This document shows positions 25,453-52,282 of a stretch of DNA of 64,000 bases, piece by piece; position 1 is the first letter of the stretch; each line of letters begins with the position of its first letter. The stretch lies in contig JBHIWP010000002.1 of assembly GCA_041987425.1 (NCBI GenBank), positions 18,608 to 82,607 of the forward strand. The letters run 5' to 3'. The notes under the pieces were generated by a model that saw nothing but the letters and a program-made list of their open reading frames with translations, did no database searches and was not told where the DNA came from. This DNA comes from Candidatus Promineifilaceae bacterium (GTDB lineage Bacteria; Chloroflexota; Anaerolineae; Promineifilales; Promineifilaceae). The position numbers were made by a program, and so were the translations under genes.

Positions 25453-25454
25453 TG

Positions 25455-26503: not shown

Positions 26504-26782
26504 CTAGTCGGTCTGCTCCCTGTAGTTTTTTGCGTACTCCCCCTCAGCGCGAATTGCTAGTATCATCCGCGTTTCGTCAAGTTTCTTGGCAAGTTCGGGG
26601 GTCCTTGCCCATCTCTCGCCAGAAACAATCAGACTGTGCAGAATGTCGCCACACTCTCCAAGCATCTCCCGCGCCTCATCCAGCTCCCGCCGCAGCCGCT
26701 CGTTTTCTGCCAGCAAGTCAGCCAACGTTTCCTCTAGCCCTTCTATGGTCAGTGCTTTAATGTCGTGTTCGTGGTTTGCCAT
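26504..26782 (-). CDS. Small coiled-coil phage protein
   Basis: 92-aa ORF. Confidence 0.4.
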   Translation of the reverse strand: MANHEHDIKALTIEGLEETLADLLAENERLRRELDEAREMLGECGDILHSLIVSGERWARTPELAKKLDETRMILAIRAEGEYAKNYREQTD

Positions 26783-26808
26783 GTCACGCCTCCTCTGGGG
26801 TGGGGGAA

Positions 26809-27276
26809 TTAAACCTCCACAATACTGACTGCCACTCTTTCTAATTCGTCTAATGGAACCAACAAACCAACCGTGTTGTAATCCTTGTTTGGTATGCTAC
26901 GCGTTTGGTATTTTCGGTTCCAGCGGGATAACTTCTTACGTAAATCTCGCGGCCGTATCACGTATATTGGGCCACTGTCATCAATGTAGTAAAAAATATA
27001 ATCAGCCTGACAGGTATAGGCCCAGCCCTGGATATTTGCCCGGTCTACGCTTATGGTTTCAATGAAGGCATTCCCTGTGCGGCTTGCCGTTTTGTCAGCT
27101 TTGTATTGGATGGCAAATTTTTTACCAGTTTCGTACTCTGTAAAAAACCGGTCAATGCCGCGTCGTTCGTCGTTACGCGCCGCCTCTTTTATTTGGAATC
27201 TGTCAGCAAAAACAGAATCTAAGAATTTTTCGGCACGTCGCCCGCGCTGGAGCTGTCGCTTAAATGAGTATTTCAT
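26809..27276 (-). CDS. Putative PD-(D/E)XK-type nuclease
   Basis: GIDRFF ... AIQYKAD resembles a D...(E/Q)xK core. The start at 27276 forms an ATGA overlap with the upstream stop. Confidence 0.3.
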   Translation of the reverse strand: MKYSFKRQLQRGRRAEKFLDSVFADRFQIKEAARNDERRGIDRFFTEYETGKKFAIQYKADKTASRTGNAFIETISVDRANIQGWAYTCQADYIFYYIDDSGPIYVIRPRDLRKKLSRWNRKYQTRSIPNKDYNTVGLLVPLDELERVAVSIVEV

Positions 27277-28196
27277 TTCCACTCCCACCAGATAACATCT
27301 GGGCTACCCCCACGAAACACCACGACCGCAGACGGAAACGGGGCGCTATTTTCAGCGTTACCAAACTTTAGACGGCCCCGCAAAAAGCGAATTTCGCCAC
27401 GTATGCAATAATCCCACCACCAGCCGGTATCTGTTCTGGCTGGGATAAGGCATACAACCGTCGCACCTTGCATCGATGCCTCCCACGCCTTTGCCATCCA
27501 GTTTTTAATACCATCGCCGTAGGGGGGATTCATCCAGCACACGGCCGTTCCCCAGTCTTGGGACAAGCCATCATCCTCTGGAGAAAAGAATTGCTCACAT
27601 TTGGTATTTGTCACAAGGGCGCAAACGTCAAGATTGAAACCAAATTCAACGTCTAGCAAATCAAATAAATCTTGTGGGGTTTCCCATTCACCTTTTTCGC
27701 TGCTGTAATGAACATCCATATAACGGCCGTTGCTTGCCGGTGGTGTCCATTCATCATCTTCGTATGGTTCAGGATCGGCACTTTCGCCGTCTGCGCTCCA
27801 TAAAGGCGCAAGGTATTCCCGCTTCGTGGCTTCTACGTGCGCGGCCGTTACCTTGCCGTTTGGGGCACTCTCTACGGCCCGCTGCCACACTTCGCGCTGT
27901 TGCTCTGGCTTTAGACTGGTTAAGGGGCGTATTTGACTTTCGTTCTCTGGTTTGGAACCAATTGGTTCCAATACCAAAACCGTTTCGCTAGCGGCAATAA
28001 GCCTATTAGCGTTTTGCCGTGTCATCCCCCACCGCTCCCGGCAATACTCCTCAAACGTGCCGTATTCTTGCCGGTACAAACGGCCGTCACGGATAGCCAA
28101 TAACGCATTGCCAACGTCAACGAACGTTTTTAACCCACGCTCAATCGTTGCTTCGTATTGTTGTAATTCTGTCTGCTCTGTTAACGAGAGTTGCAT
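27273..28196 (-). CDS. Phage DNA N6-adenine methyltransferase with an N-terminal ParB/KorB-like HTH domain
   Basis: WMNPPYG catalytic motif in the C-terminal half. The N-terminal 90 aa are the RDGRLYRQEYGTFEEYCRERWG type. Confidence 0.7.
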   Translation of the reverse strand: MQLSLTEQTELQQYEATIERGLKTFVDVGNALLAIRDGRLYRQEYGTFEEYCRERWGMTRQNANRLIAASETVLVLEPIGSKPENESQIRPLTSLKPEQQREVWQRAVESAPNGKVTAAHVEATKREYLAPLWSADGESADPEPYEDDEWTPPASNGRYMDVHYSSEKGEWETPQDLFDLLDVEFGFNLDVCALVTNTKCEQFFSPEDDGLSQDWGTAVCWMNPPYGDGIKNWMAKAWEASMQGATVVCLIPARTDTGWWWDYCIRGEIRFLRGRLKFGNAENSAPFPSAVVVFRGGSPDVIWWEWK

Positions 28197-28215
28197 TTTG
28201 AACCATAAAAAGTAA

Positions 28216-28279
28216 AAGGCTTCTGCCGGTTGCCGTTAGCGGGTGTCGAGACCGTAAACGAAAACTTAGCAGAAGCCTT
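28216..28279 (-). promoter_or_regulatory. Hairpin plus U-rich tract in the leader of the leftward early operon
   Basis: 11-bp arms AAGGCTTCTGC / GCAGAAGCCTT. On the minus strand they are followed by TTTACTTTTTAT just before the ATG at 28196. Confidence 0.35.
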
Positions 28280-28361
28280 GCGGCTAGTATATTAAGAATC
28301 TTGAAAATAGGGTAGGACTTGCGGCCAACCTGTTTTCGTTTATTACGATCTCGACAATGGG

Positions 28362-28390
28362 ATAATACCACAAACCTTTTTTGGTGTCAA
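28362..28390 (-). promoter_or_regulatory. Near-consensus sigma-70 promoter for the leftward early operon (TTGACA-17-TATTAT)
   Basis: Minus-strand reading: -35 at 28390-28385 and -10 at 28367-28362. Confidence 0.55.
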
Positions 28391-28396
28391 TAAACG

Positions 28397-28425
28397 TTGT
28401 GATATACTTTGCACCAAAATACAAT
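28397..28425 (+). promoter_or_regulatory. Promoter for the RHH gene (TTGTGA-17-TACAAT). The transcript would be leaderless
   Basis: -35 at 28397-28402 and -10 at 28420-28425. The ATG at 28433 lies 7 nt after the -10. Confidence 0.4.
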
Positions 28426-28440
28426 TTGCCATATGGCAAA
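28425..28440. promoter_or_regulatory. 16-bp perfect palindrome TTTGCCATATGGCAAA (candidate operator)
   Basis: Seen directly. It is centred on the start codon of the RHH gene and abuts its -10. Confidence 0.4.
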
Positions 28441-28624
28441 AAGGAAAGGTAATTACGTGGCTGGTCCTGGTCGTGATCCATTGTTCGATGAACCTATGGT
28501 AAGAATCCCCGGCACAATACCGGAATCATATAAAGAGCATTTGAAAAAAAGAGCCAAAGAAGAAGGTATTAGCATGGCCGAATACCTGCGCCGCCTCATT
28601 GACGCCGATATGCGGGAGGGTTAG
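28433..28624 (+). CDS. Ribbon-helix-helix (CopG/Arc-like) DNA-binding protein. Candidate prophage repressor
   Basis: MAKRKGNY...VRIPGTIPESYKEHLKKRAKEEGISMAEYLRRLI has the RHH pattern. Apart from int it is the only plus-strand gene in the prophage, and it is divergent from the early operon. Confidence 0.55.
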   Translation: MAKRKGNYVAGPGRDPLFDEPMVRIPGTIPESYKEHLKKRAKEEGISMAEYLRRLIDADMREG

Positions 28625-28818
28625 GGCTTATCGAACGCCTTCACAATGTCAACGGCCGCACACCACGCGAAGAACTCAATACACTGATTAATCACAGGTA
28701 AAAAGTGTTCATATTGCTCCTGTGACAATCTGCCGTCCTCTATTTCCTTTTTGATTTCGTCACGAAAGAGCTTTTCGTAATACCCGATTATCCTGTCTGA
28801 TGCTTCACTGGTATCCAC
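28621..28818 (-). CDS. Small phage protein
   Basis: 65-aa ORF with a GTG start. Confidence 0.35.
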   Translation of the reverse strand: MDTSEASDRIIGYYEKLFRDEIKKEIEDGRLSQEQYEHFLPVINQCIEFFAWCAAVDIVKAFDKP

Positions 28819-28971
28819 TATCTCACCTTATCCTTTACCCTTCGCTGCGGCCGTTCCTGTTGCCGCGTTTCCTTCTGAATCAATTCGGCTTCCAAACACG
28901 GCCCGCACAATTGGCGCTCAGGCGTTGCGTAGTAAAACGCGCCGTTTCTGCGTAGCGGCTGCTGGCAATGG

Positions 28972-29448
28972 TCACAGCGTTCCGTTAAGGTACTCAACTA
29001 CTAACTGCTTTACGCTATCCAAATCGCGGCACACGGCCGTTTTGTAACCCTGCGCGGCTAATCTATCCAACCAATCCCGCTGCGCCTCTGTGGGCTTGTT
29101 GTAGCCCACTTTCAGCTCTACATAGAGACCGTGATACCCGCTCCGAGCAACAGCAAGAAAGACATCCGGCACACCGGCTTTTAATCCCGGTTCCGGTCGC
29201 TGCCCTGGTCGGTATTGCCCGTTTGGGATGGCGTACATCATGGCGAGTTCTGGTAGGTCATAGACGGCCGTTTCTGCCCATTCAAATACCGCCGCTTGTA
29301 AGTCGTGTTCGGAGCCTTGCCACTGGCTGCGCTTCCCGCGCTCATCGACCTGCTGAACCGTCACAGCGCGGCGACCTGGGCCGCGTCCAAATAGTTCAGG
29401 ATTCAAAGCGACGGTATCAGGGGAGTAATTGCTAGGGTCAAGGGTCAT
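28972..29448 (-). CDS. VRR-NUC domain nuclease
   Basis: GVPDVFL...GLYVELKVGYNKPTEAQRDWLDRL matches the VRR-NUC D...ExK core. Confidence 0.7.
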   Translation of the reverse strand: MTLDPSNYSPDTVALNPELFGRGPGRRAVTVQQVDERGKRSQWQGSEHDLQAAVFEWAETAVYDLPELAMMYAIPNGQYRPGQRPEPGLKAGVPDVFLAVARSGYHGLYVELKVGYNKPTEAQRDWLDRLAAQGYKTAVCRDLDSVKQLVVEYLNGTL

Positions 29449-29454
29449 TATTAG

Positions 29455-29697
29455 CTACTCACTATTAACTGGCTCAAGAACACATAATAATGACTTCAAG
29501 ATAGATTCATCGCTCAAACCGTCGATGGAATACCACCCACAAGCATAGTATTCCTCGCTATAGATTTCATATGCTTGAATAATGGTTTTGATACCAACTA
29601 CATACCCCGCCTCATGCAAAACTCCTTGCATTTTATAGGCATCATTTACCTGGAATGTTTCCGGCCCAAATTCCTGTTTTAGCTGCAATTCAATCAT
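29455..29697 (-). CDS. Small phage protein
   Basis: 80-aa ORF. Confidence 0.4.
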   Translation of the reverse strand: MIELQLKQEFGPETFQVNDAYKMQGVLHEAGYVVGIKTIIQAYEIYSEEYYACGWYSIDGLSDESILKSLLCVLEPVNSE

Positions 29698-29699
29698 AT

Positions 29700-29903
29700 T
29701 TACCGTCGCTTATTAATTTTCCTTAGTCTGTTTAGCTTGTCTCTTTTTGGTTGTTTTCCAATGTGCCAGCCACCGCAGAAATTGCAGCTATAGCTATGTA
29801 ATTTTGCGCCTAGTTGAATCATGGCAGCCACAGCACTGGTCTGACTTTCATATCTCTGCTTGCGCTTGCAGCTCTTTCGCCTTAGTCTGCGCTTACTCGC
29901 CAT
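29700..29903 (-). CDS. Small basic protein
   Basis: 67 aa, Arg/Lys-rich, containing a CNFCGGWH element. Confidence 0.35.
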   Translation of the reverse strand: MASKRRLRRKSCKRKQRYESQTSAVAAMIQLGAKLHSYSCNFCGGWHIGKQPKRDKLNRLRKINKRR

Positions 29904-29991
29904 TGTTTATTAAAAAGGCGGCGGTTCATACGCCGGTATTGCCTGCGGTTGCCAGATTGCACAGAGTACGCGCAGGCAACCGGCGCATAAA

Positions 29992-30225
29992 TCACGCGCC
30001 GTTATGGGTTCGCTGTACGGCTCTGCTTTCGTTGTGCGGCCACACATCAAGCCGCTTGCCGTTCTGATGTGAATGGCTCCCGTTTTGGTCTGGACTGGTA
30101 GTTTGGTTGTGTGCATTGTTAGCCTCTTTTGCAGCTTCGATAATGTCATCGTTGAAGCCCCAGGGGGCAACGAAGATGGGTTTGTAAATGTGCCAACGGC
30201 CGTCGATGCGAACGAAGGCGTTCAC
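29992..30225 (-). CDS. Small phage protein
   Basis: 77-aa ORF. Preferred over the overlapping 29910..30170 frame because its N-terminus looks like an ordinary protein start. Confidence 0.3.
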   Translation of the reverse strand: MNAFVRIDGRWHIYKPIFVAPWGFNDDIIEAAKEANNAHNQTTSPDQNGSHSHQNGKRLDVWPHNESRAVQRTHNGA

Positions 30226-30390
30226 AATATCTCACCATACGGCCCGCGCACCACGCCCTGCGCCCGTTCGTGTTTGGGTTTATTTCGGCTTAAGCGACTG
30301 GACAACCTGAGCGCGGCAACTACCAACACACTCGCCACAGCTGACAAACATGTAAATATTAGAATGGCTGTCATTATCATTGCCCTTTGC

Positions 30391-30425
30391 GCCCGGTGGG
30401 GAATTACCCCTAAACCCCACCGGGC
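30391..30425 (-). terminator. 11-bp perfect GC-rich hairpin after the 30451..30651 gene
   Basis: GCCCGGTGGGG at 30391-30401 and CCCCACCGGGC at 30415-30425. There is no strong U-tract. Confidence 0.35.
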
Positions 30426-30450
30426 ACATAGAAAAGGAGAAAGATGAAAC

Positions 30451-30651
30451 CTAGTCGTCTTTTAAATCTTGCATCTTTTCGATAAATTCTTTTTTGGTGC
30501 TTTCTGCACAGCGGTATATATCTGCCAGCGCTTCCTTAAGCTCAAGGTCATCCGTAGTTTGGAAAAGTATTCGGGTCAGTCGCATGATCCTGTTTTGACA
30601 GGCTATCGTGTTTTCCAAGTACTCAAGGTCCTTATAGGCTATTTTCGGCAT
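30451..30651 (-). CDS. Small phage protein
   Basis: 66-aa ORF. Confidence 0.4.
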   Translation of the reverse strand: MPKIAYKDLEYLENTIACQNRIMRLTRILFQTTDDLELKEALADIYRCAESTKKEFIEKMQDLKDD

Positions 30652-30952
30652 CGAAAATCTTTTCTAACTCAATACGCTTTTGGCGCTGTTGCTCATGCTC
30701 TAATGCCACAAAAAACAGCTTTGCCCCGCCAGCGCATAAAAATCCACCGCATATTACGAGGTACGTGGTCGGGTCAAGCCATTCGGTAAAGAACACAAAC
30801 GGCGCGGCTATGCCAAGTACAGTGGCAATTCCAATACCGCGCCGTGCTAATTCGTTGTGCTTAAGCCATCGGCCTATTGTGAAATGCTCAATACTGACCA
30901 CAGTGCCGACGATAAATAAATACAGCGTTGTTAAAAATTCGGTTTCGTTCAT
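30632..30952 (-). CDS. Small phage membrane protein
   Basis: 106 aa with 3 hydrophobic helices. It is the first gene of the leftward block next to int. Confidence 0.45.
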   Translation of the reverse strand: MNETEFLTTLYLFIVGTVVSIEHFTIGRWLKHNELARRGIGIATVLGIAAPFVFFTEWLDPTTYLVICGGFLCAGGAKLFFVALEHEQQRQKRIELEKIFDAENSL

Positions 30953-31063
30953 TTTTGAAATTTGGTCACAAACTGCGAGTGATGTGCTACCATGTGGTTA
31001 TCATTGTCCTGTGGTGCCTGGCTTGCCGCTTTGGTGAGCCGGGCACCTGCCCTATTAGCTGAC

Positions 31064-31101
31064 TGTAAACTGTTTGTAAACTATCCGTAAACCTTGCAAA
31101 C
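31064..31101. repeat. Four phased (T/C)GTAAAC / GCAAAC direct repeats between int and the leftward block
   Basis: TGTAAAC at 31064 and 31075, CGTAAAC at 31086, GCAAAC at 31096. Spacing is 10-11 bp. Confidence 0.3.
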
Positions 31102-31124
31102 GTTGGACAAATTTGTCACATTTT

Positions 31125-31177
31125 GGTCATGGAACCAGTTCCATTAAAACTTTAGTACCATGACCCCTGTTTTTTTT
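31125..31177 (+). promoter_or_regulatory. Nested dyad followed by a T8 run upstream of int
   Basis: Outer arms GGTCATGG at 31125-31132 and CCATGACC at 31158-31165. Inner dyad ATGGAAC-ca-GTTCCAT. TTTTTTTT at 31170-31177. Confidence 0.3.
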
Positions 31178-31255
31178 GGCGAATCTGTCCACTGTTTGTA
31201 CACTTGTCGGGCTGAACTGTAACCGCTTTCATCCAAAAAAAAGCAAGGCCCACAA

Positions 31256-32221
31256 GTGAATATTTTTGAATCCCTAAAGCGCCGGATGCTATCCACTTCT
31301 GTTCTATATCTCTCTGATGTACCAGAGTTCATAGCGCTTGTCCCTGGCACAAAAATGCGGGATGTTGCCCCCAGCACTCAGAAAAAGTACAAAGACTGTA
31401 TAGCCAGATTCATAGAGTTTATGGGTGAGGATGTGCCGGTTGAAACCATCGACCGGGAGACCTACGCCGCCTTTCACGAATGGCTTGGCACTCGTGGCAC
31501 ACGTGCCATTACCTGCAACGGCTACCGACGAAGGCAGCGGGCCATCTGGAACCGATTACGGGAGCGGGGCATAGACGTTTGTGATAACCGGGGGATATTT
31601 AAAGAGCAACTAGAACCGGCACAAAAATCTAAGGCCACGATGTACGGTCACATGCAATCTATGCTGCAACTCTCTAATGTGAGAGATACGGCCGTCATCC
31701 TCTACACCGCTTCCGCTGGCTTTCGTCGCCAGACGATCCCGCGCTTACGTGTGGACAATACGCGTATATGGCTATCAGATTCAGGCCAGTACCGTATCGC
31801 CTCAAAAATTCCACAGGAAAAGACAAGCCCGCCGCGTCTTATCATCGGCGACGAAGCCGCCGCGCTTGCCGTTAAATTGTGGTTGGAGATTCGGGAGTTC
31901 CAGGATTCGCCCTGGCTGTTTTACGAGATGCACAACGGCGACCAAATGAGCGAGTTCAACGTGTCGGACATTTTCGGACGCCTGCGCCGCGCTGCCAATA
32001 TTCCCGCATGGTCTAACGCTTCTGCACATGGCCTGCGTCACCGTTTTGCTCAGGAGCAACTAAACGAACACGATCAGAAAATAGTTGCTCAGTGGATGGG
32101 AATTAGCGTTGAAACTATGTTGAAGGTTTACGCACACCGTGACGAGGAATCATTAATCACGGCCCGGCTAGGGGATAAAGACTTTCCCAAAGAACTACTA
32201 AATGGTAATGGCAAATCTTGA
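31256..32221 (+). CDS. int: Tyrosine recombinase / phage integrase
   Basis: C-terminal HGLRHRFA ... VYAHRD (R-H-R-Y family) and an N-terminal SAM-like domain. Lies next to tRNA sequence. The start is uncertain (GTG at 31256, or the internal ATG beginning MLSTS). Confidence 0.8.
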   Translation: MNIFESLKRRMLSTSVLYLSDVPEFIALVPGTKMRDVAPSTQKKYKDCIARFIEFMGEDVPVETIDRETYAAFHEWLGTRGTRAITCNGYRRRQRAIWNRLRERGIDVCDNRGIFKEQLEPAQKSKATMYGHMQSMLQLSNVRDTAVILYTASAGFRRQTIPRLRVDNTRIWLSDSGQYRIASKIPQEKTSPPRLIIGDEAAALAVKLWLEIREFQDSPWLFYEMHNGDQMSEFNVSDIFGRLRRAANIPAWSNASAHGLRHRFAQEQLNEHDQKIVAQWMGISVETMLKVYAHRDEESLITARLGDKDFPKELLNGNGKS

Positions 32222-32224
32222 CGC

Positions 32225-32274
32225 TGGACTCAAGCCCGGTACAATTGGACTCTATAGCCGCAATTCGTGGACTC
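32225..32274 (+). repeat. Three direct TGGACTC repeats immediately after the int stop (candidate arm-type integrase sites)
   Basis: Copies at 32225, 32246 and 32268, spaced 21-22 bp. Confidence 0.3.
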
Positions 32275-32307
32275 GAACCCCCCAAACACGCCTTCCAAGC
32301 TCTTGTC

Positions 32308-32332
32308 ACGGGTTCGAATCCCGTCTGCCGCT
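32308..32332 (+). pseudogene. tRNA 3' fragment (T-arm plus 3' acceptor strand). Candidate att core / displaced tRNA end
   Basis: ACGGG-TTCGAAT-CCCGT followed by CTGCCGC-T. No matching 5' acceptor, D arm or anticodon arm is present upstream. Confidence 0.5.
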
Positions 32333-32366
32333 CTATCCAGCGCAGCAACGGTAGCAAACAGTAATA

Positions 32367-32438
32367 GGGCCTGTAGCTCAACGGCAGAGCAGTCGGCTCA
32401 TAACCGATCGGTTTCAGGTTCGAATCCTGGCAGGCCCA
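32367..32438 (+). tRNA. tRNA with CAU anticodon (elongator Met type, or Ile2)
   Basis: Hand-folded cloverleaf of 72 nt. Acceptor GGGCCTG/CAGGCCC, D stem GCTC/GAGC, anticodon loop CTCATAA, T arm TCAGG-TTCGAAT-CCTGG. G1-C72 is paired, so it is not an initiator. Confidence 0.85.
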
Positions 32439-40804: not shown

Positions 40805-41173
40805 TTATATGTTTGGTTGCTGATACCTTTGAATTTCTAAAACATCCCCATTTCGATCTGTCCACTTTTTTGGTTGCAGAGTAATATTTTCAATCATTCC
40901 TGCTGCATACTGTGCCCAGTTGTAAAGTATGCCACCTTGCTTCTCAGCAAGCCAACCTTGTTGCCAAAATTCCTCGAAAAACTCTAAGAACTGTTGTGCA
41001 TCAATGAGATATTCATCTTCGCCGTTATCATCTTGTAGACCACTAGAACATTCAAGAAATTGAAGCTCGATTAGGTGGGTAATTTTGTAGAATAACTTTG
41101 CTCGCCCATTTGACATGCTGGCCGCGAAACGCTTATTTCCATCTTTTAACAAAGCTATAAATATTTTTCCCAT
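40805..41173 (-). CDS. Orphan protein inserted between hisF and hisI (A/T-rich)
   Basis: 122-aa ORF with no motif recognised. Its composition is clearly more A/T-rich than the flanking his genes. Confidence 0.5.
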   Translation of the reverse strand: MGKIFIALLKDGNKRFAASMSNGRAKLFYKITHLIELQFLECSSGLQDDNGEDEYLIDAQQFLEFFEEFWQQGWLAEKQGGILYNWAQYAAGMIENITLQPKKWTDRNGDVLEIQRYQQPNI

Positions 41174-45540: not shown

Positions 45541-45936
45541 TTAGAGGTTGAGAGCCACACGCTTGATGCCACCAACTTTTAGTCGGCGCACGTTGAAATT
45601 TAGTAGCAACCCTAGCTTTAGATTTGCCAGCTTTAAGTAGGACATTAATTGTGCCTGGTGTATGGCTTCAAATTTTTTGATAGCTTTTAGCTCCACAACA
45701 ACAAGATTTTCTACTACAAAGTCCGCTCTATAAGCATTCTCCACAGGAAGTTGTTTGTAGATTAACGGGATGGTTCTTTCGCGCTCATATTCAATGTTTC
45801 GCAATGCCATCTCATGAGCCAAACAGGCCTGATAAGCTGACTCTAGCAAGCCAGGACCGAGATGTTTATGTACTTCAATGGCCGCCCCGATAATCTTTCC
45901 CGTAATCTTGTCTTCTTCTCGCATTGGCTCTCTCAT
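45541..45936 (-). CDS. GxxExxY family protein (PD-(D/E)XK-like, PDDEXK_3)
   Basis: KIIGAAIEVHKHLGPGLLESAYQACLAHEM contains the GxxExxY signature. The start was set at the first ATG (45936), because the ORF-track start is a TTG. Confidence 0.75.
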   Translation of the reverse strand: MREPMREEDKITGKIIGAAIEVHKHLGPGLLESAYQACLAHEMALRNIEYERERTIPLIYKQLPVENAYRADFVVENLVVVELKAIKKFEAIHQAQLMSYLKLANLKLGLLLNFNVRRLKVGGIKRVALNL

Positions 45937-45942
45937 ATTCAA

Positions 45943-47295: not shown

Positions 47296-47306
47296 GGTCT
47301 TTTGGG

Positions 47307-47377
47307 AGGAAGTGAAGAGTGAGAAGTGAAAAGTAAAAAGAACCCACTTATCACTTTTCACTTTTTACTTATCACTC
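47307..47377. repeat. Heptamer-repeat hairpin (unit AAGTGA[A/G]) filling the hisG-hisD spacer
   Basis: GAAGTGA AGAGTGA GAAGTGA AAAGTAA AAAG aaccca CTTATCA CTTTTCA CTTTTTA CTTATCA CTC. The arms pair over about 30 bp by hand and overlap the hisG stop. Confidence 0.65.
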
Positions 47378-48390
47378 TGTAAAGCTGTTAGCATGGCGCG
47401 GTACCGCTCCGGTTCTTCTTCAAAAATGTAGGTGCAGGGTGAGACGACCACACCGCTGCCGCCAATGGCTCGTAGTTCAGCAATGGCCTGGAACAAATTT
47501 GCTTTTTGCACAACAATATTAACGGCGAACCAGTTGGGGTCGCCAGGCGTGTGGTGCCGGGCGACGACCGGGGCAATGGTGGGGCCGCGCAGGCCGCGCA
47601 GGTGAGGCTGGCTCAGCATCTTTTTGGCAATATCTTCGGGAGAATCCCCGCGTACGTTTGTGACAACCAGGAAGGAACTTTCGGCGCGCAGGTAGGCTTC
47701 GATGTATTCAATGAGCTGGCGGGCCACGGTGAGCACGTCCGGACGCGTTTTCAGCGTTTCTTTGTTGGCGATCAGGCAGGCTTGCGAGCGCAAGATGAGA
47801 CCATCTTCAATCGGGCGCAAGTGATTGTCGCGCAGGGTGATGCCGGAGGAGACCAAATCGGAGATGACGTCGGCATAGCCGATTGTGGGGGCAATTTCCA
47901 GCGTGCCCTCTACGCTAATTAGCTTGACGGGGGCCACACCGTGCTGTTCCAGGAAAGCACCGGTGACTTTGGGGAACTTAGTCGCCACGCGTAGGGCACG
48001 GCCGTTTTCTCCCAGTGCCTCAGCCCAGGCCGCCAGATCGCCCATCGTGCGGGCTGGCTGATCTTCCGGGATAGCCAGGTTGAGGGTGCAGGGGCCAAAG
48101 CCAAGCGCGTCGTGGAGGGTGAGGATGGATTGCGAACGGCCGTAAGCCTTTTCAGCCAGGATATCCAGGCCCGTAATACCAAAATCAATGCTTCCTTGCC
48201 GTACCCCGGTAACAATATCGCCTGGCCGCTGAAACATCACCGTAAGCTGAGGCAGGCTAGGAATGATGGCTTCATACTGGCGGGGATTGGGTCTAAAAAT
48301 CTTTAATCCACACGCTTCTAAAAAATCAAACGCGTCTTTGTGCAAGGCCCCCTTACTAGGCAGGGCCAGCCGGATATCTGATCGTAGCAT
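47365..48390 (-). CDS. hisG: ATP phosphoribosyltransferase (long form with C-terminal regulatory domain)
   Basis: LRLALPSKG, DIVTGVRQGSIDFGITG, DLVSSGITLRDN. The start was moved to the ATG at 48390, preceded by GAAGGAG. The ORF-track extension is repeat-encoded. Confidence 0.9.
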   Translation of the reverse strand: MLRSDIRLALPSKGALHKDAFDFLEACGLKIFRPNPRQYEAIIPSLPQLTVMFQRPGDIVTGVRQGSIDFGITGLDILAEKAYGRSQSILTLHDALGFGPCTLNLAIPEDQPARTMGDLAAWAEALGENGRALRVATKFPKVTGAFLEQHGVAPVKLISVEGTLEIAPTIGYADVISDLVSSGITLRDNHLRPIEDGLILRSQACLIANKETLKTRPDVLTVARQLIEYIEAYLRAESSFLVVTNVRGDSPEDIAKKMLSQPHLRGLRGPTIAPVVARHHTPGDPNWFAVNIVVQKANLFQAIAELRAIGGSGVVVSPCTYIFEEEPERYRAMLTALQSDK

Positions 48391-48410
48391 ACAATACTCC
48401 TTCAAGATAG

Positions 48411-48455
48411 TTGAACGCAGAGGCGCAGAGAACGTAAACCGCAAAATCTCTGCCT
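48411..48455. repeat. GCGCAGAGA-type repeat element in the hisG 5' UTR
   Basis: GAACGCAGAGGCGCAGAGAACGTAAACCGCAAAATCTCTGCC uses the same unit type as the GxxExxY flanks and the hisC insert. Confidence 0.5.
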
Positions 48456-48500
48456 TAAGTTTATCTTATACGGGAAGGGTTTCACCCGTTATTACAGAAT

Positions 48501-48537
48501 ACAAACAAAAACACCCTCCTCTGGCTTGAGGAGGGTG
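48501..48537 (-). terminator. Intrinsic terminator of the his leader (attenuator)
   Basis: The minus strand reads CACCCTCCTC aagcca GAGGAGGGTG followed by TTTTTGTTTGT. It lies 34 nt after the leader-peptide stop and about 110 nt before the hisG ATG. Confidence 0.7.
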
Positions 48538-48570
48538 CTAAAATGCATCCCAGTTAGAATTAAAGCTGCC

Positions 48571-48651
48571 TCAACCCAAAGTAAACCATCGCCAACTTGC
48601 ATGGTGTGCGTGATGATGCTTCAGATGGGTTGCAGCAGGAATGTTTTTCAT
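48571..48651 (-). CDS. His-rich leader peptide of the his operon (26 aa)
   Basis: Hand translation gives MKNIPAATHLKHHHAHHASWRWFTLG, with six His including HHHAHH. It is followed by the terminator and is absent from the ORF track. Confidence 0.6.
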   Translation of the reverse strand: MKNIPAATHLKHHHAHHASWRWFTLG

Positions 48652-48670
48652 GACGCTAAAAGTCTAGCAC

Positions 48671-48699
48671 ATACTACGTGGTGTGCAATCTATTTCCAA
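48671..48699 (-). promoter_or_regulatory. Candidate his operon promoter TTGGAA-17-TAGTAT
   Basis: Minus-strand reading: -35 at 48699-48694 and -10 at 48676-48671, about 20 nt upstream of the leader ATG. Confidence 0.3.
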
Positions 48700-48808
48700 T
48701 ATCCCTTCTGTAAAGAGCCTTTTAACAGTTTGTTATCAATTCGATTTATGCCCTGATTGATGTGTATAATGTGCGAAAAATTCTTGCTAAATTTAGGTAG
48801 GTTGCACC

Positions 48809-50536
48809 GTGTCTATTCCTGGAACAGTTGTTTACAATTCGGCAGTAGAAGATTTTAAGCGGGCCCGTCGCGCCGCGGCCATGCAGCAAATGATGGCCCG
48901 GCTCACCGGCAAGTCGGCCGATCTTTTGGCCTATGAGGATGTTTGCCGCTATGTGAAATCTGCTGACGAGGTGAAGCAGGGCGTGCGGGAGATCCCACTG
49001 GACGCCATTGTGGGCAGCGTAGGCCGGTACAAGGATTTTACGCGTACTTTCTGGCCCAAGAACGATAGTGATGAGGAGCGTTGGGTGCGGGTGAAAACGG
49101 CCGTTCACGATATGTCTGGTATGTCGCCCATTGATGTGTATAAAACCGGCGACGTTTACTTTGTTATTGACGGCAACCACCGGGTCTCTATTGCCCGGCA
49201 GCTGGGCAGCGACACGATTACCGCCCGCGTCACGGAAGTGCCGCTGCGCGTGCCCCTGTCGCCCGATGATGATCCTGAAAAAATTATTTGTAAAGCGCGG
49301 TATGCTGAGTTTTTGGAGCAAACGGATCTGGACAATTTACGACCTGGAGCAAATCTGCTGATGACTTTTTGTGGCCAGTACCAGCTGCTGCTGGACCAGA
49401 TTGCGGCGCATGCTGCGCTTTTGGCGGAGAAGGGTGAAGCGGTTGATGATAAAACGGCCGTTTGCCGCTGGTATGATGAGGTGTATCTGCCTGTCTTGCG
49501 CCACATTCAGGCGCAGGGCATCATGCGCCTCTTTCCAGACAGGACCCAGGCCGATATGTACATCCTTTTTTCTGAACGGCGGGCGGAGCTGGAAGAGGCT
49601 TTGGGTTGGAAGATTGATGCGGAGACGGCCGTATCTCAATTAGCCAGCGAAGAAAGCGACCGACCAAAAGGGCTGGCGGGCTGGCTGCGCCAGACGCTGG
49701 TACCCGCAGAGCTGATTGAAGGGCCGCCCCCAGGGCGCTGGCGGGAATTTCAGGAAACGCGAGAGCGAGGTTGCCTGTTTGCCGATTATTTGGTGGCTAT
49801 AGAGGGCAGCGAAACAGATTGGCAAATGCTGGACCAGGTGGTAAAGATGGCGCTGCGCGACAATGACCGTCTGCTGGGCCTGCACGTGGTGGCGCGTCAG
49901 GCGCAGCGAAACAGCGCGAAAGTAGAGCGGATCCGAGAAAGATTTCTGCGCACCTGCCGTGAGGCTGGCCTTAGATGCGAGTTTGCCGTTGAAGTGGGCG
50001 CTGTTGTGGATGTTATTATTAAACGGGCCATCTTTGCTGATTTGGTCGTGCTCAATTTAGAGCATCCCCCGGGGCCACAGGCTCTCGCCAGGTTGGGCAA
50101 CCGCTTTAGCCAGCTGGTGCAGCGCTGCCCACGACCCATTTTAGCCATTCCTTGTGGGGCAGAGACGGCTATGGACCGGGTGCTATTGGCTTACGACGGC
50201 AGCCCCAAGGCAGATGAAGCGCTGTTTGTGGCTACCTACCTGGTAACGCGCTGGCCGCTGTCCTTGACGGTGGTTACGGTGGAGACGGAGCATACGGCGG
50301 CCAATGCCCTACAGCGCGCCAAAGAATATTTGGAGGCGCACGGCGTTACGAAAGCGCGGTACGTGTTGGGCAAGATGCCCATTGCAGAAGCGGTTTTACA
50401 AACGGCCGTTGACGAAGATATTAATTTTCTCATCATGGGTGGCTTTGGTTTTAGGCCCATGATGCACTTTGTGCTCGGCAGCACTGTGGATGAGATTTTG
50501 CGGCGGTTTAAGCATCCAATTTTAATTTGTCGATGA
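48809..50536 (+). CDS. ParB/Srx-like N-domain protein with a DUF4032-like middle region and tandem C-terminal universal stress protein domains
   Basis: YFVIDGNHRVSIARQLG (ParB/sulfiredoxin-type), then WYDEVYLPV...RTQADMYIL. Two USP-like halves follow, ending GGFGF...VLGSTVDEILR. GTG start. Confidence 0.6.
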   Translation: MSIPGTVVYNSAVEDFKRARRAAAMQQMMARLTGKSADLLAYEDVCRYVKSADEVKQGVREIPLDAIVGSVGRYKDFTRTFWPKNDSDEERWVRVKTAVHDMSGMSPIDVYKTGDVYFVIDGNHRVSIARQLGSDTITARVTEVPLRVPLSPDDDPEKIICKARYAEFLEQTDLDNLRPGANLLMTFCGQYQLLLDQIAAHAALLAEKGEAVDDKTAVCRWYDEVYLPVLRHIQAQGIMRLFPDRTQADMYILFSERRAELEEALGWKIDAETAVSQLASEESDRPKGLAGWLRQTLVPAELIEGPPPGRWREFQETRERGCLFADYLVAIEGSETDWQMLDQVVKMALRDNDRLLGLHVVARQAQRNSAKVERIRERFLRTCREAGLRCEFAVEVGAVVDVIIKRAIFADLVVLNLEHPPGPQALARLGNRFSQLVQRCPRPILAIPCGAETAMDRVLLAYDGSPKADEALFVATYLVTRWPLSLTVVTVETEHTAANALQRAKEYLEAHGVTKARYVLGKMPIAEAVLQTAVDEDINFLIMGGFGFRPMMHFVLGSTVDEILRRFKHPILICR

Positions 50537-50542: not shown

Positions 50543-52282
50543 ATGAGTGCACACAATCAATATCACTACCATGCAGCCCTGGAGGACTTTCACCAGGCGC
50601 GGCGACAGGCGGCAATGCAGCAGCTGCTGGCCCGATTTACCGGCGAGCAAACTGAACTACTATCGTATGAGGATGTGAGGCGAAAGCTGAAGGTCACCAA
50701 CGTACGCGAGCGTGGACTGCAAGAAATCCCTGTAAATAAGATTATTGGCAGCGTAGGGCGCTACAAAGATTTTACCCGGAGCTTTTTGCCCAAGAGCGAC
50801 AGCGACAGCCATCGCTGGGCCCGGGTTAAAGCGGCCGTTTCAGACCTGGCTGGCGTACCGCCAATTGAGGTTTATCAGCTGGGCGATGCTTATTTTGTCA
50901 TAGACGGCAACCATCGCGTCTCCATTGCCAGGCAGCTGGAGACTCCCACCATCTCCGCGTATGTGACTGAGGTGAAGACCCGCGTTCCCCTGACGGCAGA
51001 CGATGATCCCGAAGAGCTGATTTGCAAAAGCCGCTATGCGGAATTCCTGGAAAATACCGATCTGGATAATCTGCGGCCTGAAGCTGATTTAATGATGACC
51101 TTCTGTGCCCATTACTCTGTTTTGCTAGACCATATTGAGGTACATCGCTATTACATGGGGCTGGATCTGAAGCGGGATGTCTCTTACGAAGAAGCTGTGG
51201 CCCACTGGTATGACGAGGTGTACATGCCCGTGGTGGAACTGGTGCGCGAGCAGGGGATTATGCGAGACTTCCCCGAGCGCACCGAAGCGGATATGTATAT
51301 TTTGCTGGCAGAACATCGCGCTGAGTTGGAAAGTGCTCTGGGCTGGGATGTGGATGCCAGTACGGCCGTTAGCGAGATGCAGCGCAAGAGCAGACCGGGG
51401 CCTGCGCTGGCGCGCGTGTTGGAAGCCGTGCTGCCCGATGAGCTGGAGTTTGGCCCGGCTGCTGGGCAGTGGCGGCAAGAGCGGCTAAGCCAGCGTAATC
51501 TGAGCCGCCTTTTTGAAGAAACAATGGTGGCTATCTCGGGTCAGCCAGATGACTGGCGCGTGTTGGACCAGGCGATAGTGATGGCACAGCGGGAAACCGG
51601 CCGTTTACGTGGCGTTCATGTATCTGATGCCAGCGATGAGGAAGCCGCTGAAGAGAGTGTGTCATCCATACGGGGAGAATTTTACCGCAGAACGGAGTCC
51701 GCCGGAGTCCAGGCAAATTTTACCGTTGAGTTTGGCAACGTAGCCCGCCACATTGTGGCCCATGCCGCCTACTCCGACCTGGTAATGCTGGCTTTGAATC
51801 GCCCCCCTGGCCTCTCGATTTTGGAGCGCCTGGCCTCTGGCCTGCAAACCATACTTAAGCGAACGCCGCGACCGGTGATGGTTGTGCCTACGGCCGCATC
51901 CCCCATGCAGCACGCCTTACTGGCTTATGACGGCAGCCCCAAGGCAGAAGAAGCGCTGTTTGTGGCTACTTATCTGGCCAGCCGGTGGCAGATACAGCTT
52001 ACAGTTGCAACGATTAGCAGCAGCGCCAACGGTAAGCTGGATGCTTCCAGGCGCATTCAGGCAAGGGCCAAAACATACCTTGAACTGGCCGGAGTTTCTG
52101 CCAACTACTTGCTTTCTGTGGGGCCACCCGCGCAATCCTTGCTGGAAACGGCCGTTTCGCAAAATGTGGATTTTATGATCATGGGCGGGTTCGGCTTTAG
52201 TTCTATGAAGAGCCTGGTGTTGGGCAGCACGCTCAACCGCGTTTTGCTGGAGTACAAGCAGCCTGTATTGATATGCAGATAA
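50543..52282 (+). CDS. Paralogue of the preceding gene (ParB/Srx-like + DUF4032-like + 2x USP)
   Basis: Collinear similarity to 48809..50536 along the whole length (YFVIDGNHRVSIARQL, WYDEVYMPV, GGFGF...VLGSTLNRVL). Confidence 0.6.
   Translation: MSAHNQYHYHAALEDFHQARRQAAMQQLLARFTGEQTELLSYEDVRRKLKVTNVRERGLQEIPVNKIIGSVGRYKDFTRSFLPKSDSDSHRWARVKAAVSDLAGVPPIEVYQLGDAYFVIDGNHRVSIARQLETPTISAYVTEVKTRVPLTADDDPEELICKSRYAEFLENTDLDNLRPEADLMMTFCAHYSVLLDHIEVHRYYMGLDLKRDVSYEEAVAHWYDEVYMPVVELVREQGIMRDFPERTEADMYILLAEHRAELESALGWDVDASTAVSEMQRKSRPGPALARVLEAVLPDELEFGPAAGQWRQERLSQRNLSRLFEETMVAISGQPDDWRVLDQAIVMAQRETGRLRGVHVSDASDEEAAEESVSSIRGEFYRRTESAGVQANFTVEFGNVARHIVAHAAYSDLVMLALNRPPGLSILERLASGLQTILKRTPRPVMVVPTAASPMQHALLAYDGSPKAEEALFVATYLASRWQIQLTVATISSSANGKLDASRRIQARAKTYLELAGVSANYLLSVGPPAQSLLETAVSQNVDFMIMGGFGFSSMKSLVLGSTLNRVLLEYKQPVLICR

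What the first reader, a model, noticed from the sequence alone, without database searches (positions are those of the whole stretch)
48501..48699. Enterobacterial-style His leader peptide and attenuator in front of hisG
On the minus strand, about 260 nt upstream of hisG, a 26-codon ORF reads MKNIPAATHLKHHHAHHASWRWFTLG-stop (48651..48571). Five of seven consecutive codons are His. A strong intrinsic terminator begins 34 nt downstream: a 10-bp G/C-rich stem CACCCTCCTC/GAGGAGGGTG, a 6-nt loop, then TTTTTGTTTGT.

Segments able to compete with the terminator 5' arm are visible by eye. GGGTTGAGG can pair with CCTCAAGCC, and GGGATGC with GCACCC. A plausible TTGGAA-17-TAGTAT promoter precedes the ORF.

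Leader-peptide attenuation of his operons is textbook for Enterobacteria (hisL), whereas many Gram-positive lineages use T-box leaders. The gene content here does not look proteobacterial. This would therefore be an independent or poorly documented occurrence. I cannot establish its novelty from memory.
Basis: partly seen in the sequence, partly recalled or inferred. Interest (0 to 1): 0.65.

Follow-up and report, generated by a model that had tools for sequence, protein, structure and literature searches.

The report
Histidine leader-peptide attenuator in Anaerolineae
A tiny histidine-rich gene followed by a transcription stop signal sits in front of the histidine-biosynthesis operon of a marine Chloroflexi bacterium and recurs in about 45 related genomes, so it is very probably a ribosome-operated switch that turns the operon on when histidine is scarce: a textbook mechanism that I could not find catalogued for this phylum.

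Summary
On the minus strand a 26-codon ORF (48651..48571, MKNIPAATHLKHHHAHHASWRWFTLG) is followed by a 12-bp intrinsic terminator (48539..48510). Then comes hisG, the first gene of a hisG-D-(GxxExxY)-C-B-H-A-F operon.

The organism is a Chloroflexota of class Anaerolineae, near Promineifilaceae/Ardenticatenaceae. A His-rich short ORF plus terminator stands at the same place in 46 of 51 Anaerolineae hisG loci. It is absent from 20 loci of other lineages.

His codons change only synonymously. The stop codon lies inside a segment (GGGUUGAGG) that can pair either with the region just upstream of the His run or with the terminator's 5' arm. This is the classical 1:2 / 2:3 / 3:4 attenuator logic.

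The element does not match Rfam His_leader (RF00514) or T-box, so it is an analogue of enterobacterial hisL, not a relative.

The conserved promoter is TTGCAC-16-TGcTAGACT. It ends 9 nt before the ATG and there is no Shine-Dalgarno sequence, so the leader ORF is probably translated from a nearly leaderless mRNA.

The antiterminator has only moderate statistical support, and no RNA data exist. Verdict: a well-supported new member of a known kind.

The parts
48683..48688 (-). -35 hexamer TTGCAC of the conserved leader promoter
   Evidence: A TTG stands 16-17 nt upstream of the -10 hexamer in 45 of 47 leaders. Function as a promoter is inferred from conservation.
48661..48669 (-). Extended -10 element TGc-TAGACT (hexamer 48666..48661)
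   Evidence: A TAnnnT hexamer preceded by TGn occurs in 46 of 47 leaders. It ends 9-10 nt before the ATG in 40 of 47.
48652..48654 (-). Predicted transcription start region (G at 48654, 7 nt after the -10 hexamer), giving a 5' UTR of about 0-3 nt with no Shine-Dalgarno sequence
   Evidence: Inference from the -10 spacing. A purine stands at -3 in most orthologues (alignment, read by eye). An SD-like 4-mer precedes 1 of 47 leaders against 28 of 47 hisG genes. Not measured.
48571..48651 (-). Leader ORF, 26 codons plus TGA: MKNIPAATHLKHHHAHHASWRWFTLG
   Evidence: It is conserved in frame, with the same stop position, in close relatives.
48601..48618 (-). Regulatory His run, codons 12-17 (CAT CAT CAC GCA CAC CAT). 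One further His codon lies at 48625..48627
   Evidence: Among 11 close relatives all 4 variable columns of this block are third codon positions, and every change is synonymous.
48567..48637 (-). Hairpin P1 (segments 1:2, the anti-antiterminator). Its 5' arm runs from CUGCUGCAACCC through the His codons. Its 3' arm includes GGGUUGAGGCAG
   Evidence: MFE -25.9 kcal/mol. It is the RNAalifold consensus of 11 relatives.
48569..48578 (-). Segment 2, UGGGUUGAGG. It overlaps the TGA stop codon (48573..48571) and is the 5' strand of the outer antiterminator helix
   Evidence: Invariant in group A. It pairs with CCUCAAGCCA in the truncated fold.
48545..48551 (-). GGGAUGC, 5' strand of the inner antiterminator hairpin. 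It pairs with GCACCC of the terminator's 5' arm
   Evidence: One pair changes C:G to U:A in 3 relatives.
48510..48539 (-). Intrinsic terminator (segments 3:4): AGCACCCUCCUC, loop AAGCCA, GAGGAGGGUGUU. The U-rich tail runs on to about 48501
   Evidence: 12 pairs, 7 G-C. Folds at -22.0 kcal/mol. An equivalent hairpin plus T-run is present in about 48 orthologous loci.
48397..48403 (-). Shine-Dalgarno sequence GAAGGAG of hisG
   Evidence: Read directly from the sequence.
47365..48390 (-). hisG (long-form ATP phosphoribosyltransferase), first gene of the regulated operon hisG-hisD-GxxExxY-hisC-hisB-hisH-hisA-hisF, which runs down to 41204
   Evidence: NCBIfam TIGR00070 and TIGR03455. The other genes are equivalog hits above cut-off.

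Best explanation
This is a ribosome-mediated (leader-peptide) transcription attenuator of the histidine operon.

Transcription starts from the promoter TTGCAC-16-TGcTAGACT, only about 0-3 nt before the ATG of a 26-codon ORF. A ribosome therefore loads at the very 5' end without a Shine-Dalgarno sequence.

When His-tRNA is plentiful, the ribosome runs to the TGA. The TGA lies inside segment 2 (UGGGUUGAGG), so the ribosome masks that segment. The terminator (3:4) then forms and RNA polymerase stops at about 48503, before hisG.

Without any translation, segment 2 is locked in hairpin P1 with segment 1, and the terminator also forms.

When His-tRNA is scarce, the ribosome stalls on the HHHAHH codons and covers segment 1. 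Segment 2 is freed. Together with the small GGGAUGC hairpin it pairs with the whole 5' arm and loop of the terminator before the 3' arm is transcribed. Polymerase then reads through into hisGDCBHAF.

Shown here: the sequence elements, their conservation, the coding-type constraint on the His codons, and the predicted alternative pairings. Inferred: the transcription start, translation of the ORF, the His dependence and the read-through.
For: Position and context. The element lies between a conserved promoter and the first gene of a complete his operon.

Conservation.
- A short ATG ORF with at least 3 His in 7 codons, followed by a G+C-rich hairpin and T-run, is found in 46 of 51 Anaerolineae hisG loci. 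HisG identity in these falls to 48%.
- None of the 20 loci from other lineages has it.
- A covariance model built from 11 close relatives finds one copy, on the right strand and at the right place, in 48 loci. It finds a single copy in the window.

Translation signature. In the HHHAHH block all 4 variable columns are third codon positions and all changes are synonymous; the Ala codon shows all four bases.

Switch logic in the window.
- P1 folds at -25.9, the antiterminator at -17.8 and the terminator at -22.0 kcal/mol.
- With the A site on His codons 9 or 12-14, 10 of 11 nt of the terminator's 5' arm are sequestered before the 3' arm exists.
- With no ribosome only 6 are sequestered, and with a ribosome at the stop codon 8, and in neither case by segment 2.

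Switch logic across relatives.
- An antiterminator of at least 6 pairs forms in 45 of 46 leaders, against 50% of dinucleotide shuffles.
- Native upstream/terminator combinations gain -9.6 and -9.3 kcal/mol in groups A and C. Cross-group swaps gain -4.8 to -5.7.
- In group A 92% of antiterminator cells pair, against 38-64% when the partner is slid, and one pair is compensatory.
- In the distant group C, P1 pairs the His codons (CAUGCCC) directly with the antiterminator 5' strand. Five pairs of that consensus structure (P1 plus terminator) show compensatory changes. The antiterminator is 80% paired against 34-50% slid.

Leaderless start.
- The -10 hexamer ends 9-10 nt before the ATG in 40 of 47 leaders.
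- 46 of 47 have an extended TG.
- 1 of 47 has an SD-like motif, against 28 of 47 hisG genes.
Against: - No experimental data exist: no transcription start, no 3' end, no expression data. The only runs holding the sequence are DNA metagenomes. RNA runs for relatives cover only fragments of hisG.
- In full-length thermodynamic folds the terminator persists under every ribosome constraint in all 46 leaders. The model therefore depends on kinetic, co-transcriptional folding.
- The antiterminator is only modestly better than chance for a single sequence. The window gains -12.0 against -8.5 kcal/mol for shuffles, and 14 of 100 shuffles do as well. The mean z over 46 leaders is -1.0.
- Group B shows no native-versus-swap specificity.
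- Covariation among close relatives is thin: one compensatory pair in each structure.
- The stricter test, in which segment 2 must be masked by the stall footprint, is met by 18 of 46 leaders against 15% of shuffles.
- With the A site on His codons 16-17 the model lets P1 re-form around the ribosome.
- A few lineages keep the structure with few His codons (L014, L017, L021, L035), and one has lost the ORF (L005).
- The 9-10 nt gap between the -10 hexamer and the ATG is 3-4 nt longer than the typical leaderless spacing reported in PMC3160421.
Confidence: 0.8

Rival explanations
1. The ORF is not translated. The leader is instead a terminator/antiterminator switch operated by a trans factor. Candidates are uncharged tRNA-His (T-box-like), or a histidine-binding RNA-binding protein of the HutP, TRAP or PyrR kind.
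For: Conserved alternative hairpins and a terminator would equally suit a protein- or tRNA-operated switch. The weak PyrR-model match (17.5 bits, E = 7.8) reflects that shared architecture. No Shine-Dalgarno sequence precedes the ORF.
Against: There is no T-box match at E up to 10 in the window or at E up to 1 in nine orthologous loci. The His block evolves like coding sequence, with only synonymous third-position changes. An ATG at a fixed distance from the -10 box, the reading frame and the stop position are all conserved. Between distant groups the His run is kept while the surrounding RNA sequence is replaced.
Confidence: 0.06
2. The ORF encodes a functional His-rich micropeptide, for example a metal-binding one. 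The hairpin simply ends that small transcript, and hisG is expressed from its own promoter downstream.
For: In the window 118 nt separate the terminator from hisG, enough for a promoter. The C-terminal part of the peptide is conserved within groups (WRRFxLG in group A, DFQVGxxCFKEL in group C).
Against: In several relatives only 17-22 nt lie between the terminator and hisG (L008, L014, L039, L030), which leaves no room for a promoter. Apart from the His run the peptide is not conserved between groups. The conserved C-terminal codons coincide with the RNA segments that form P1 and the antiterminator. The linkage to hisG is universal across the class.
Confidence: 0.05
3. The control is translational or Rho-dependent rather than by intrinsic termination. 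Leader translation would affect hisG only through mRNA structure, stability or polarity.
For: Transcription-translation coupling has not been studied in Chloroflexota. The antiterminator is thermodynamically weaker than the terminator.
Against: The hairpin is a canonical intrinsic terminator: 10-14 G+C-rich pairs followed directly by a T-run, in about 48 loci. The hisG Shine-Dalgarno sequence lies far from the switch in the window and is not part of the alternative helices.
Confidence: 0.05
4. The whole arrangement is a chance co-occurrence of a His-rich spurious ORF and a terminator.
For: Six-frame translation of the window gives 8 places with at least 4 His in 7 codons. Terminator-like hairpins are not rare: 4 found against 2.5 expected in 2 kb.
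Against: The arrangement is conserved in 46 of 51 Anaerolineae loci, down to 48% HisG identity, always directly upstream of hisG.
Confidence: 0.01

Closest known systems
hisL leader peptide / his attenuator of Escherichia coli and Salmonella (Rfam RF00514 His_leader)
   Same: A short ORF with a run of His codons lies between the promoter and hisG. It is followed by mutually exclusive hairpins and an intrinsic terminator, and the ribosome's position selects the fold. The operon begins with hisG and hisD in both. The mechanism is as summarised in PMC3896937 and PMC9413887.
   Different: There is no detectable sequence or structure similarity: RF00514 gives no match even at E up to 10. The enterobacterial peptide has seven consecutive His codons (PMC3896937); this one has HHHAHH in a 26-residue peptide. 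From memory, the enterobacterial leader uses a three-hairpin A:B, C:D, E:F scheme and SD-led initiation. Here the scheme is 1:2 / 2:3 (plus a small helper hairpin) / 3:4. The stop codon lies inside segment 2, and the ORF starts about 0-3 nt from the predicted 5' end.
Candidate His leader-peptide attenuators in Firmicutes (Bacillus cereus group, Peptostreptococcaceae/Lutispora, Erysipelotrichales), Ashniev et al. 2022, PMC9413887
   Same: These are lineage-specific, apparently independent His attenuators. They have 3-5 His codons in a row, attenuator, terminator and antiterminator hairpins, and also fail to match RF00514. They were found by the same comparative logic.
   Different: The phylum and the sequences differ. 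Those elements were predicted in 17 genomes. This one spans a whole class, with at least three structural sub-types. No model of the Firmicutes elements was available here to test relatedness.
Leader-peptide attenuators on leaderless transcripts in Actinobacteria (Corynebacterium glutamicum ilvBNC, with trp, leuA and aroF leader peptides detected by RNA-seq), PMC11857589 and PMC3890552
   Same: A ribosome-mediated attenuator whose leader ORF is treated as translated by leaderless-type initiation (ilvBNC). The -10 box is of TANNNT type and lies 7 +/- 1 nt upstream of the start in that organism.
   Different: Those sense branched-chain or aromatic amino acids. C. glutamicum controls hisDCB by a T-box-like leader, not by a His peptide. 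In the present case the leaderless start is inferred from promoter spacing only, and the gap of 9-10 nt suggests a leader of about 3 nt rather than none.
Histidine-specific T-box leaders (RF00230) of Firmicutes and Actinobacteria
   Same: A cis-acting terminator/antiterminator switch upstream of his genes that reports the charging of tRNA-His.
   Different: A T-box binds uncharged tRNA directly and needs no translation. No T-box match is found here, and the His codons behave as translated codons.

Membership tests
Ribosome-mediated leader-peptide transcription attenuators (mechanistic class) | A short ORF enriched in codons for the amino acid made by the downstream operon | tested here: met
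   26 codons with HHHAHH plus one more His, directly upstream of hisGDCBHAF. The His run is conserved in 46 of 51 Anaerolineae loci.
Ribosome-mediated leader-peptide transcription attenuators (mechanistic class) | An intrinsic terminator between the leader ORF and the first structural gene | tested here: met
   12-pair stem plus T-run at 48539..48510, -22.0 kcal/mol. Present in about 48 orthologous loci.
Ribosome-mediated leader-peptide transcription attenuators (mechanistic class) | An antiterminator that is mutually exclusive with the terminator | tested here: met
   UGGGUUGAGG/CCUCAAGCCA plus GGGAUGC/GCACCC occupy 10 of 11 nt of the terminator's 5' arm, at -17.8 kcal/mol. It forms in 45 of 46 leaders against 50% of shuffles. 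92% of cells pair against 38-64% slid. Support for the single window sequence is only moderate.
Ribosome-mediated leader-peptide transcription attenuators (mechanistic class) | An anti-antiterminator (1:2) whose 5' strand lies under a ribosome stalled at the regulatory codons, with the stop codon placed so that a finishing ribosome masks segment 2 | tested here: met
   P1 spans 48637..48567 and includes the His codons. The TGA lies inside UGGGUUGAGG. The ribosome-position simulation gives the expected outcomes for codons 9 and 12-14, for the stop codon and for no ribosome, but not for codons 16-17. In group C the His codons pair directly with segment 2, with compensatory changes.
Ribosome-mediated leader-peptide transcription attenuators (mechanistic class) | The leader ORF is translated | tested here: inconclusive
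   Indirect support only: synonymous-only variation in the His block, and conserved ATG, frame and stop. No ribosome profiling or proteomic data are available.
Ribosome-mediated leader-peptide transcription attenuators (mechanistic class) | Read-through rises when the cognate aminoacyl-tRNA is scarce | not testable with these tools
   This needs Term-seq, reporter assays or in-vitro coupled transcription-translation. No usable RNA runs were found.
Rfam RF00514 His_leader (proteobacterial) | Covariance-model score at or above the gathering threshold | tested here: not met
   No RF00514 match at E up to 10 on 48300..48850, none at gathering score on the whole window, and none at E up to 1 in nine orthologous loci.
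T-box leader (RF00230) | Covariance-model match (specifier loop and T-box sequence) | tested here: not met
   No match.
Leaderless-mRNA leader peptides (as in Corynebacterium) | The transcription start coincides with, or lies within a few nt of, the leader start codon, with no Shine-Dalgarno sequence | tested here: inconclusive
   A conserved -35 / TGn / -10 promoter ends 9-10 nt before the ATG in 40 of 47 leaders, and an SD-like motif occurs in 1 of 47. The start itself was not measured. The spacing is 3-4 nt longer than the typical leaderless signal.

The most novel reading that the evidence does not exclude
The element is an independently evolved attenuator family that is ancestral to the class Anaerolineae. 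Its leader peptide is translated from a (near-)leaderless transcript. The first ribosome would then load on the 5' end as soon as it leaves RNA polymerase, making coupling obligatory. This would be the first case of ribosome-mediated attenuation, and therefore of functional transcription-translation coupling, in Chloroflexota. It has diversified into at least three structural sub-types while keeping the same logic. A more remote possibility is that the released attenuated RNA of about 150 nt, or the His-rich peptide, also acts in trans, as described for rnTrpL in Sinorhizobium (title and abstract of PMC6614838, seen).
Probability: 0.5. Interest if true: 0.55.

Novelty: new member of a known kind. 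Interest (0 to 1): 0.4.

Why it matters
Anaerolineae are abundant in sediments, seawater particles, activated sludge and digesters. Most are uncultured, and almost nothing is known about their gene regulation.

- A class-wide, easily recognised His attenuator gives a first handle on amino-acid control in this group.
- It implies that transcription and translation are coupled there.
- It adds a further independent invention of leader-peptide attenuation to those in Proteobacteria and Firmicutes.
- The near-leaderless start makes it a compact natural test case for how 5'-end-loaded ribosomes can drive attenuation.
- Practically, the covariance model could seed a new Rfam family and improve annotation of these genomes, where the 26-codon ORF is otherwise missed.

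It does not change the textbook picture of the mechanism.

Tried and rejected
- Rfam: three searches found no His_leader, T-box or other leader family. They covered the region at E up to 10, the whole window at gathering score, and nine orthologous loci at E up to 1. Only chance-level hits driven by the terminator hairpin appeared (PyrR, Phe_leader on the wrong strand, rnk_leader at 35 bits against a 50-bit threshold).
- Full-length MFE folding with a ribosome footprint did not show the switch. The terminator always wins thermodynamically. Truncated, co-transcriptional folds were needed.
- Transcript evidence could not be obtained. The window sequence is held only in seawater DNA metagenomes. 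Three small metatranscriptomes of the same study had nothing. For relatives L065 and L008 some RNA runs hold fragments, and the L065 runs examined cover only parts of hisG, not the leader.
- A search for other leaderless leader-peptide attenuators in the window found only one other candidate, a Phe-rich ORF at 25753 on the plus strand. It lies antisense inside a coding gene and was rejected.
- The CM-guided alignment of all groups was too unreliable outside group A to use for class-wide covariation. Per-group alignments were used instead.
- Literature searches for a Chloroflexi or Anaerolineae His attenuator found nothing. Subscription-only papers are not covered, for example Vitreschak et al. 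2004 on attenuators outside Proteobacteria, which I recall only from memory.
Full report
**1. Observation**

The minus strand of 48200..48900 reads as the first-stage reader described.
- The ORF runs from the ATG at 48651 to the TGA at 48573..48571. It encodes MKNIPAATHLKHHHAHHASWRWFTLG.
- 34 nt further on lies CACCCTCCTC-AAGCCA-GAGGAGGGTG followed by TTTTTGTTTGT. The consensus scan reports this as a 12-pair stem with 7 G-C pairs at 48539..48510.
- The hisG ATG is at 48390, behind GAAGGAG.
- The 171-nt leader folds at -60.3 kcal/mol against -43.0 +/- 4.0 for dinucleotide shuffles (z = -4.4).
- In the six-frame translation of the window only 8 places have at least 4 His in 7 codons. Only this one combines a -10 box, ATG, short ORF and terminator in front of a gene.

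**2. Context**

NCBIfam identifies the downstream genes as hisG, hisD, a GxxExxY protein, hisC, hisB, hisH, hisA and hisF. All are on the minus strand, from 48390 down to 41204. The upstream neighbour (48809..50536) is divergent, so the hairpin is not the terminator of a preceding gene.

A genome scan with HisG returned 71 loci. The best are 82-93% identical and belong to MAGs named Candidatus Promineifilaceae, Ardenticatenaceae, Candidatus Leptofilum or Anaerolineae. The window sequence itself is held in seawater and marine metagenomes. The organism is therefore a marine member of Chloroflexota, class Anaerolineae.

**3. Conservation**

I scanned 600-700 nt upstream of hisG in all loci.
- 46 of the 51 Anaerolineae-type loci (L001-L049, L052, L065) have a short ATG ORF with at least 3 His in 7 codons, and all but one of these (L033, whose hairpin is imperfect) have a G+C-rich hairpin plus T-run before hisG. 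HisG identity in this set falls to 48%.
- Four loci have degenerate versions. L004 lacks the ATG. L017, L021 and L035 are His-poor.
- One locus (L005) has the ORF deleted, with the promoter fused to a weakened terminator.
- None of the other 20 loci has the element. These are Dehalococcoidia, SAR202, Ktedonobacteria, Chloroflexia, cyanobacteria, two 'Promethearchaeota' contigs, and one Anaerolineae locus (L053) in which another gene abuts hisG.

The leaders fall into at least three sequence groups.
- Group A, which includes the window: ...NHHHAHH..WRRFxLG*, terminator ACCCUCCUC.
- Group B: MKMIH.LTH.H.HH...LG*, terminator CCCUCCCCGG.
- Group C: MKN...HHHHAHKTDFQVG..CFKEL.IS*, terminator GCACUUCCC.

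A covariance model built from the 11 group-A sequences finds the element at the expected place and strand in 48 loci, with E from 1e-44 to about 0.4. It finds exactly one copy in the 64-kb window.

**4. Evidence that the ORF is read as codons**

In the HHHAHH block of the 11 close relatives, the only variable columns are four third-codon positions. All changes are synonymous: CAT/CAC, and GCA/GCC/GCT/GCG. The ATG, the frame and the stop position (GGU UGA GG) are also fixed. Between groups the RNA sequence around the run is replaced while the His run stays. This pattern fits a translated regulatory ORF. It does not fit a protein- or tRNA-binding RNA motif.

**5. Promoter and start of translation**

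I aligned 60 nt upstream of 47 leader ATGs.
- The conserved promoter is TTGCAC (48688..48683), a 16-nt spacer, then TGc-TAGACT (48669..48661).
- The TGn extension is present in 46 of 47 leaders. A TTG stands 16-17 nt upstream of the hexamer in 45 of 47.
- The hexamer ends 9-10 nt before the ATG in 40 of 47.
- An SD-like 4-mer precedes 1 of 47 leaders, against 28 of 47 hisG genes.

In Corynebacterium the TANNNT box lies 7 +/- 1 nt upstream of the start (PMC3896937). On that spacing the start falls on the purine at -3 (G at 48654), which is a purine in most orthologues (read by eye). The leader ORF would then have a 5' UTR of about 0-3 nt.

Zheng et al. take a TANNNT signal about 12 bp upstream of a start codon as the mark of leaderless genes, and they report such signals in Chloroflexi (PMC3160421). 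Here the signal sits 3-4 nt further away. I therefore call the transcript 'near-leaderless', and this is an inference.

**6. The switch in the window**

Energies:

| Structure | Coordinates | Energy (kcal/mol) |
|---|---|---|
| P1 (segments 1:2) | 48637..48567 | -25.9 |
| Terminator (3:4) | 48539..48510 | -22.0 |
| Antiterminator | 48578..48522 | -17.8 |

The antiterminator consists of an outer helix UGG.GUUGAGG / CCUCAA.CCA and an inner hairpin GGG.UGC / GCACCC. Together they cover 10 of the 11 nt of the terminator's 5' arm.

Segment 2 (UGGGUUGAGG) contains the stop codon. It is also the 3' strand of P1, paired there with CAACCC/CUGC just upstream of the His run.

I simulated a ribosome footprint on RNA transcribed only as far as the terminator loop.

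| Ribosome position | Result |
|---|---|
| None | P1 holds segment 2. Only the weak inner hairpin touches the terminator arm (6 of 11 nt). |
| A site on His codon 9, 12, 13 or 14 | The full antiterminator forms (10 of 11 nt). |
| A site on the stop codon | Segment 2 is covered, so the full antiterminator cannot form (8 of 11 arm nt paired, none with segment 2). |
| A site on His codon 16 or 17 | The thermodynamic model lets P1 re-form around the ribosome. This is probably unrealistic sterically, but it is a weakness. |

In full-length folds the terminator always wins. The switch must therefore be kinetic, as in the classical trp attenuator, where the antiterminator is also weaker than the terminator (from memory).

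**7. The switch across relatives**

- With the ribosome on the His run and the 3' arm not yet made, the terminator's 5' arm pairs with an upstream segment in all 46 leaders. That segment overlaps the stop codon in groups A/A2. In group C it lies 20-38 nt upstream of the stop, inside the ORF.
- An antiterminator of at least 6 pairs forms in 45 of 46 leaders, against 50% of dinucleotide shuffles.
- The stricter requirement is that segment 2 is also masked by the stall footprint. It is met by 18 of 46 leaders against 15% of shuffles. The criterion penalises group A, whose inner hairpin is not expected to be masked.
- The energy gain has a mean z of only -1.0. For the window, 14 of 100 shuffles do as well.
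- Swapping shows specificity for groups A and C: native gains are -9.6 and -9.3 kcal/mol against -4.8 to -5.7 for cross-group pairs. Group B shows none.
- In group A, 92% of antiterminator cells pair, against 38-64% with slid partners. One pair changes C:G to U:A in three sequences. That structure was derived from the window itself, so this comparison is biased in its favour.
- In group C, RNAalifold pairs the His codons (CAUGCCC) directly with GGGCGUG, part of the antiterminator's 5' strand. Five pairs of the consensus structure (P1 plus terminator) show compensatory changes. The antiterminator is 80% paired against 34-50% slid.

Overall the four-segment logic is conserved although the sequences are not. 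That is what a functional attenuator predicts.

**8. Comparison with what is known**

By mechanism this is the classical leader-peptide attenuator of the enterobacterial his operon (summaries in PMC3896937 and PMC9413887). It is not a member of Rfam His_leader RF00514 or of the T-box family.

Ashniev et al. 2022 likewise found that RF00514 is confined to Proteobacteria. They predicted three independent His leader attenuators in Firmicutes. A survey of Rfam-type RNA motifs that included five Chloroflexi genomes lists the His leader (RF00514) among its motifs, but no passage I read links it to Chloroflexi (PMC3766115).

Full-text searches for Chloroflexi or Anaerolineae together with attenuator or leader-peptide terms found nothing relevant. 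From memory, Vitreschak et al. 2004 predicted amino-acid attenuators in some Bacteroidetes/Chlorobi, Thermotogales and low-GC Gram-positives. I could not read that paper here.

Attenuators whose leader peptides are treated as translated from leaderless mRNA are discussed for Corynebacterium glutamicum ilvBNC (PMC11857589). The near-leaderless start therefore has a precedent.

**9. Verdict**

It is a new, well-conserved, class-wide member of a known kind of regulatory element. Its start of translation is noteworthy but unproven. No experimental or transcript evidence exists. The antiterminator, although conserved in logic, has only moderate statistical support. Interest is moderate (0.4).

Noticed in passing
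window 45541..45942 (-): A GxxExxY-family gene (TIGR04256, E = 6.5e-44) sits inside the his operon between hisD and hisC.
   Followed up: partly
window 47299..47364 (hisG-hisD spacer), especially 47344..47378: An A/T-rich imperfect palindrome (AAAAGTGAAAAGTGATAAGTG...CACTTCTCACT). Short pieces of it occur on many other contigs of DNA run X1 and lift the local depth far above the flanking 4.65. It looks like a dispersed REP-like repeat. The long ORF call for hisD (GTG at 47361) probably over-extends into it. The likely start is the ATG at 47298.
   Followed up: partly
window about 16000..32438: A lower-GC block (0.49 against 0.52-0.59) ends at a tRNA-Met gene (32367..32438). It carries an HTH_36 protein with tandem QKGDTP repeats (25455..26225, encoded by repeated GGTGTGTCACCTTTTT units) and, judging by their sequences only, a DnaC/IstB-like ATPase (24544..25452) and a ParB/methylase-like protein (27273..28196). 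It is probably an integrated mobile element or prophage.
   Followed up: partly
window 48809..50536 (+) and 50543..52282 (+): Two tandem paralogues of about 575 aa with C-terminal universal stress protein (Usp) domains and a shared, unassigned N-terminal region. They are divergently transcribed from the his leader promoter region.
   Followed up: partly
L005:2811-2933 (Candidatus Leptofilum sp., complete chromosome): The leader ORF is deleted. The conserved promoter (TTGCAC...TGTGCTAACT) abuts a terminator that carries one stem mismatch. This is a natural variant that may show what happens when the sensor is lost.
   Followed up: partly
L004, L014, L017, L021, L035 (upstream of hisG): These leaders keep the promoter, hairpins and terminator but have lost the ATG (L004) or most of the His codons. 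Either the attenuators are decaying or regulation has been rewired.
   Followed up: no
L021: about 81..17 nt upstream of hisG: A 64-nt A/T-rich palindrome built from GTAATTG(G/A)G units lies between the terminator and hisG.
   Followed up: no
L048:1218-1335: A SAM riboswitch (RF00162, 88 bits) lies about 1.4 kb upstream of the His leader in that Anaerolineales MAG.
   Followed up: no
L050, L051: Contigs assigned to 'Promethearchaeota' (Asgard archaea) MAGs encode a long-form HisG 46% identical to the window's. It has no leader and sits in an A/T-rich context. Possible explanations are horizontal transfer or mis-binning.
   Followed up: no
window 40805..41173 (-): A 122-aa ORF directly after hisF has no NCBIfam or Pfam match. 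hisI/hisE was not seen in the part of the operon examined.
   Followed up: no
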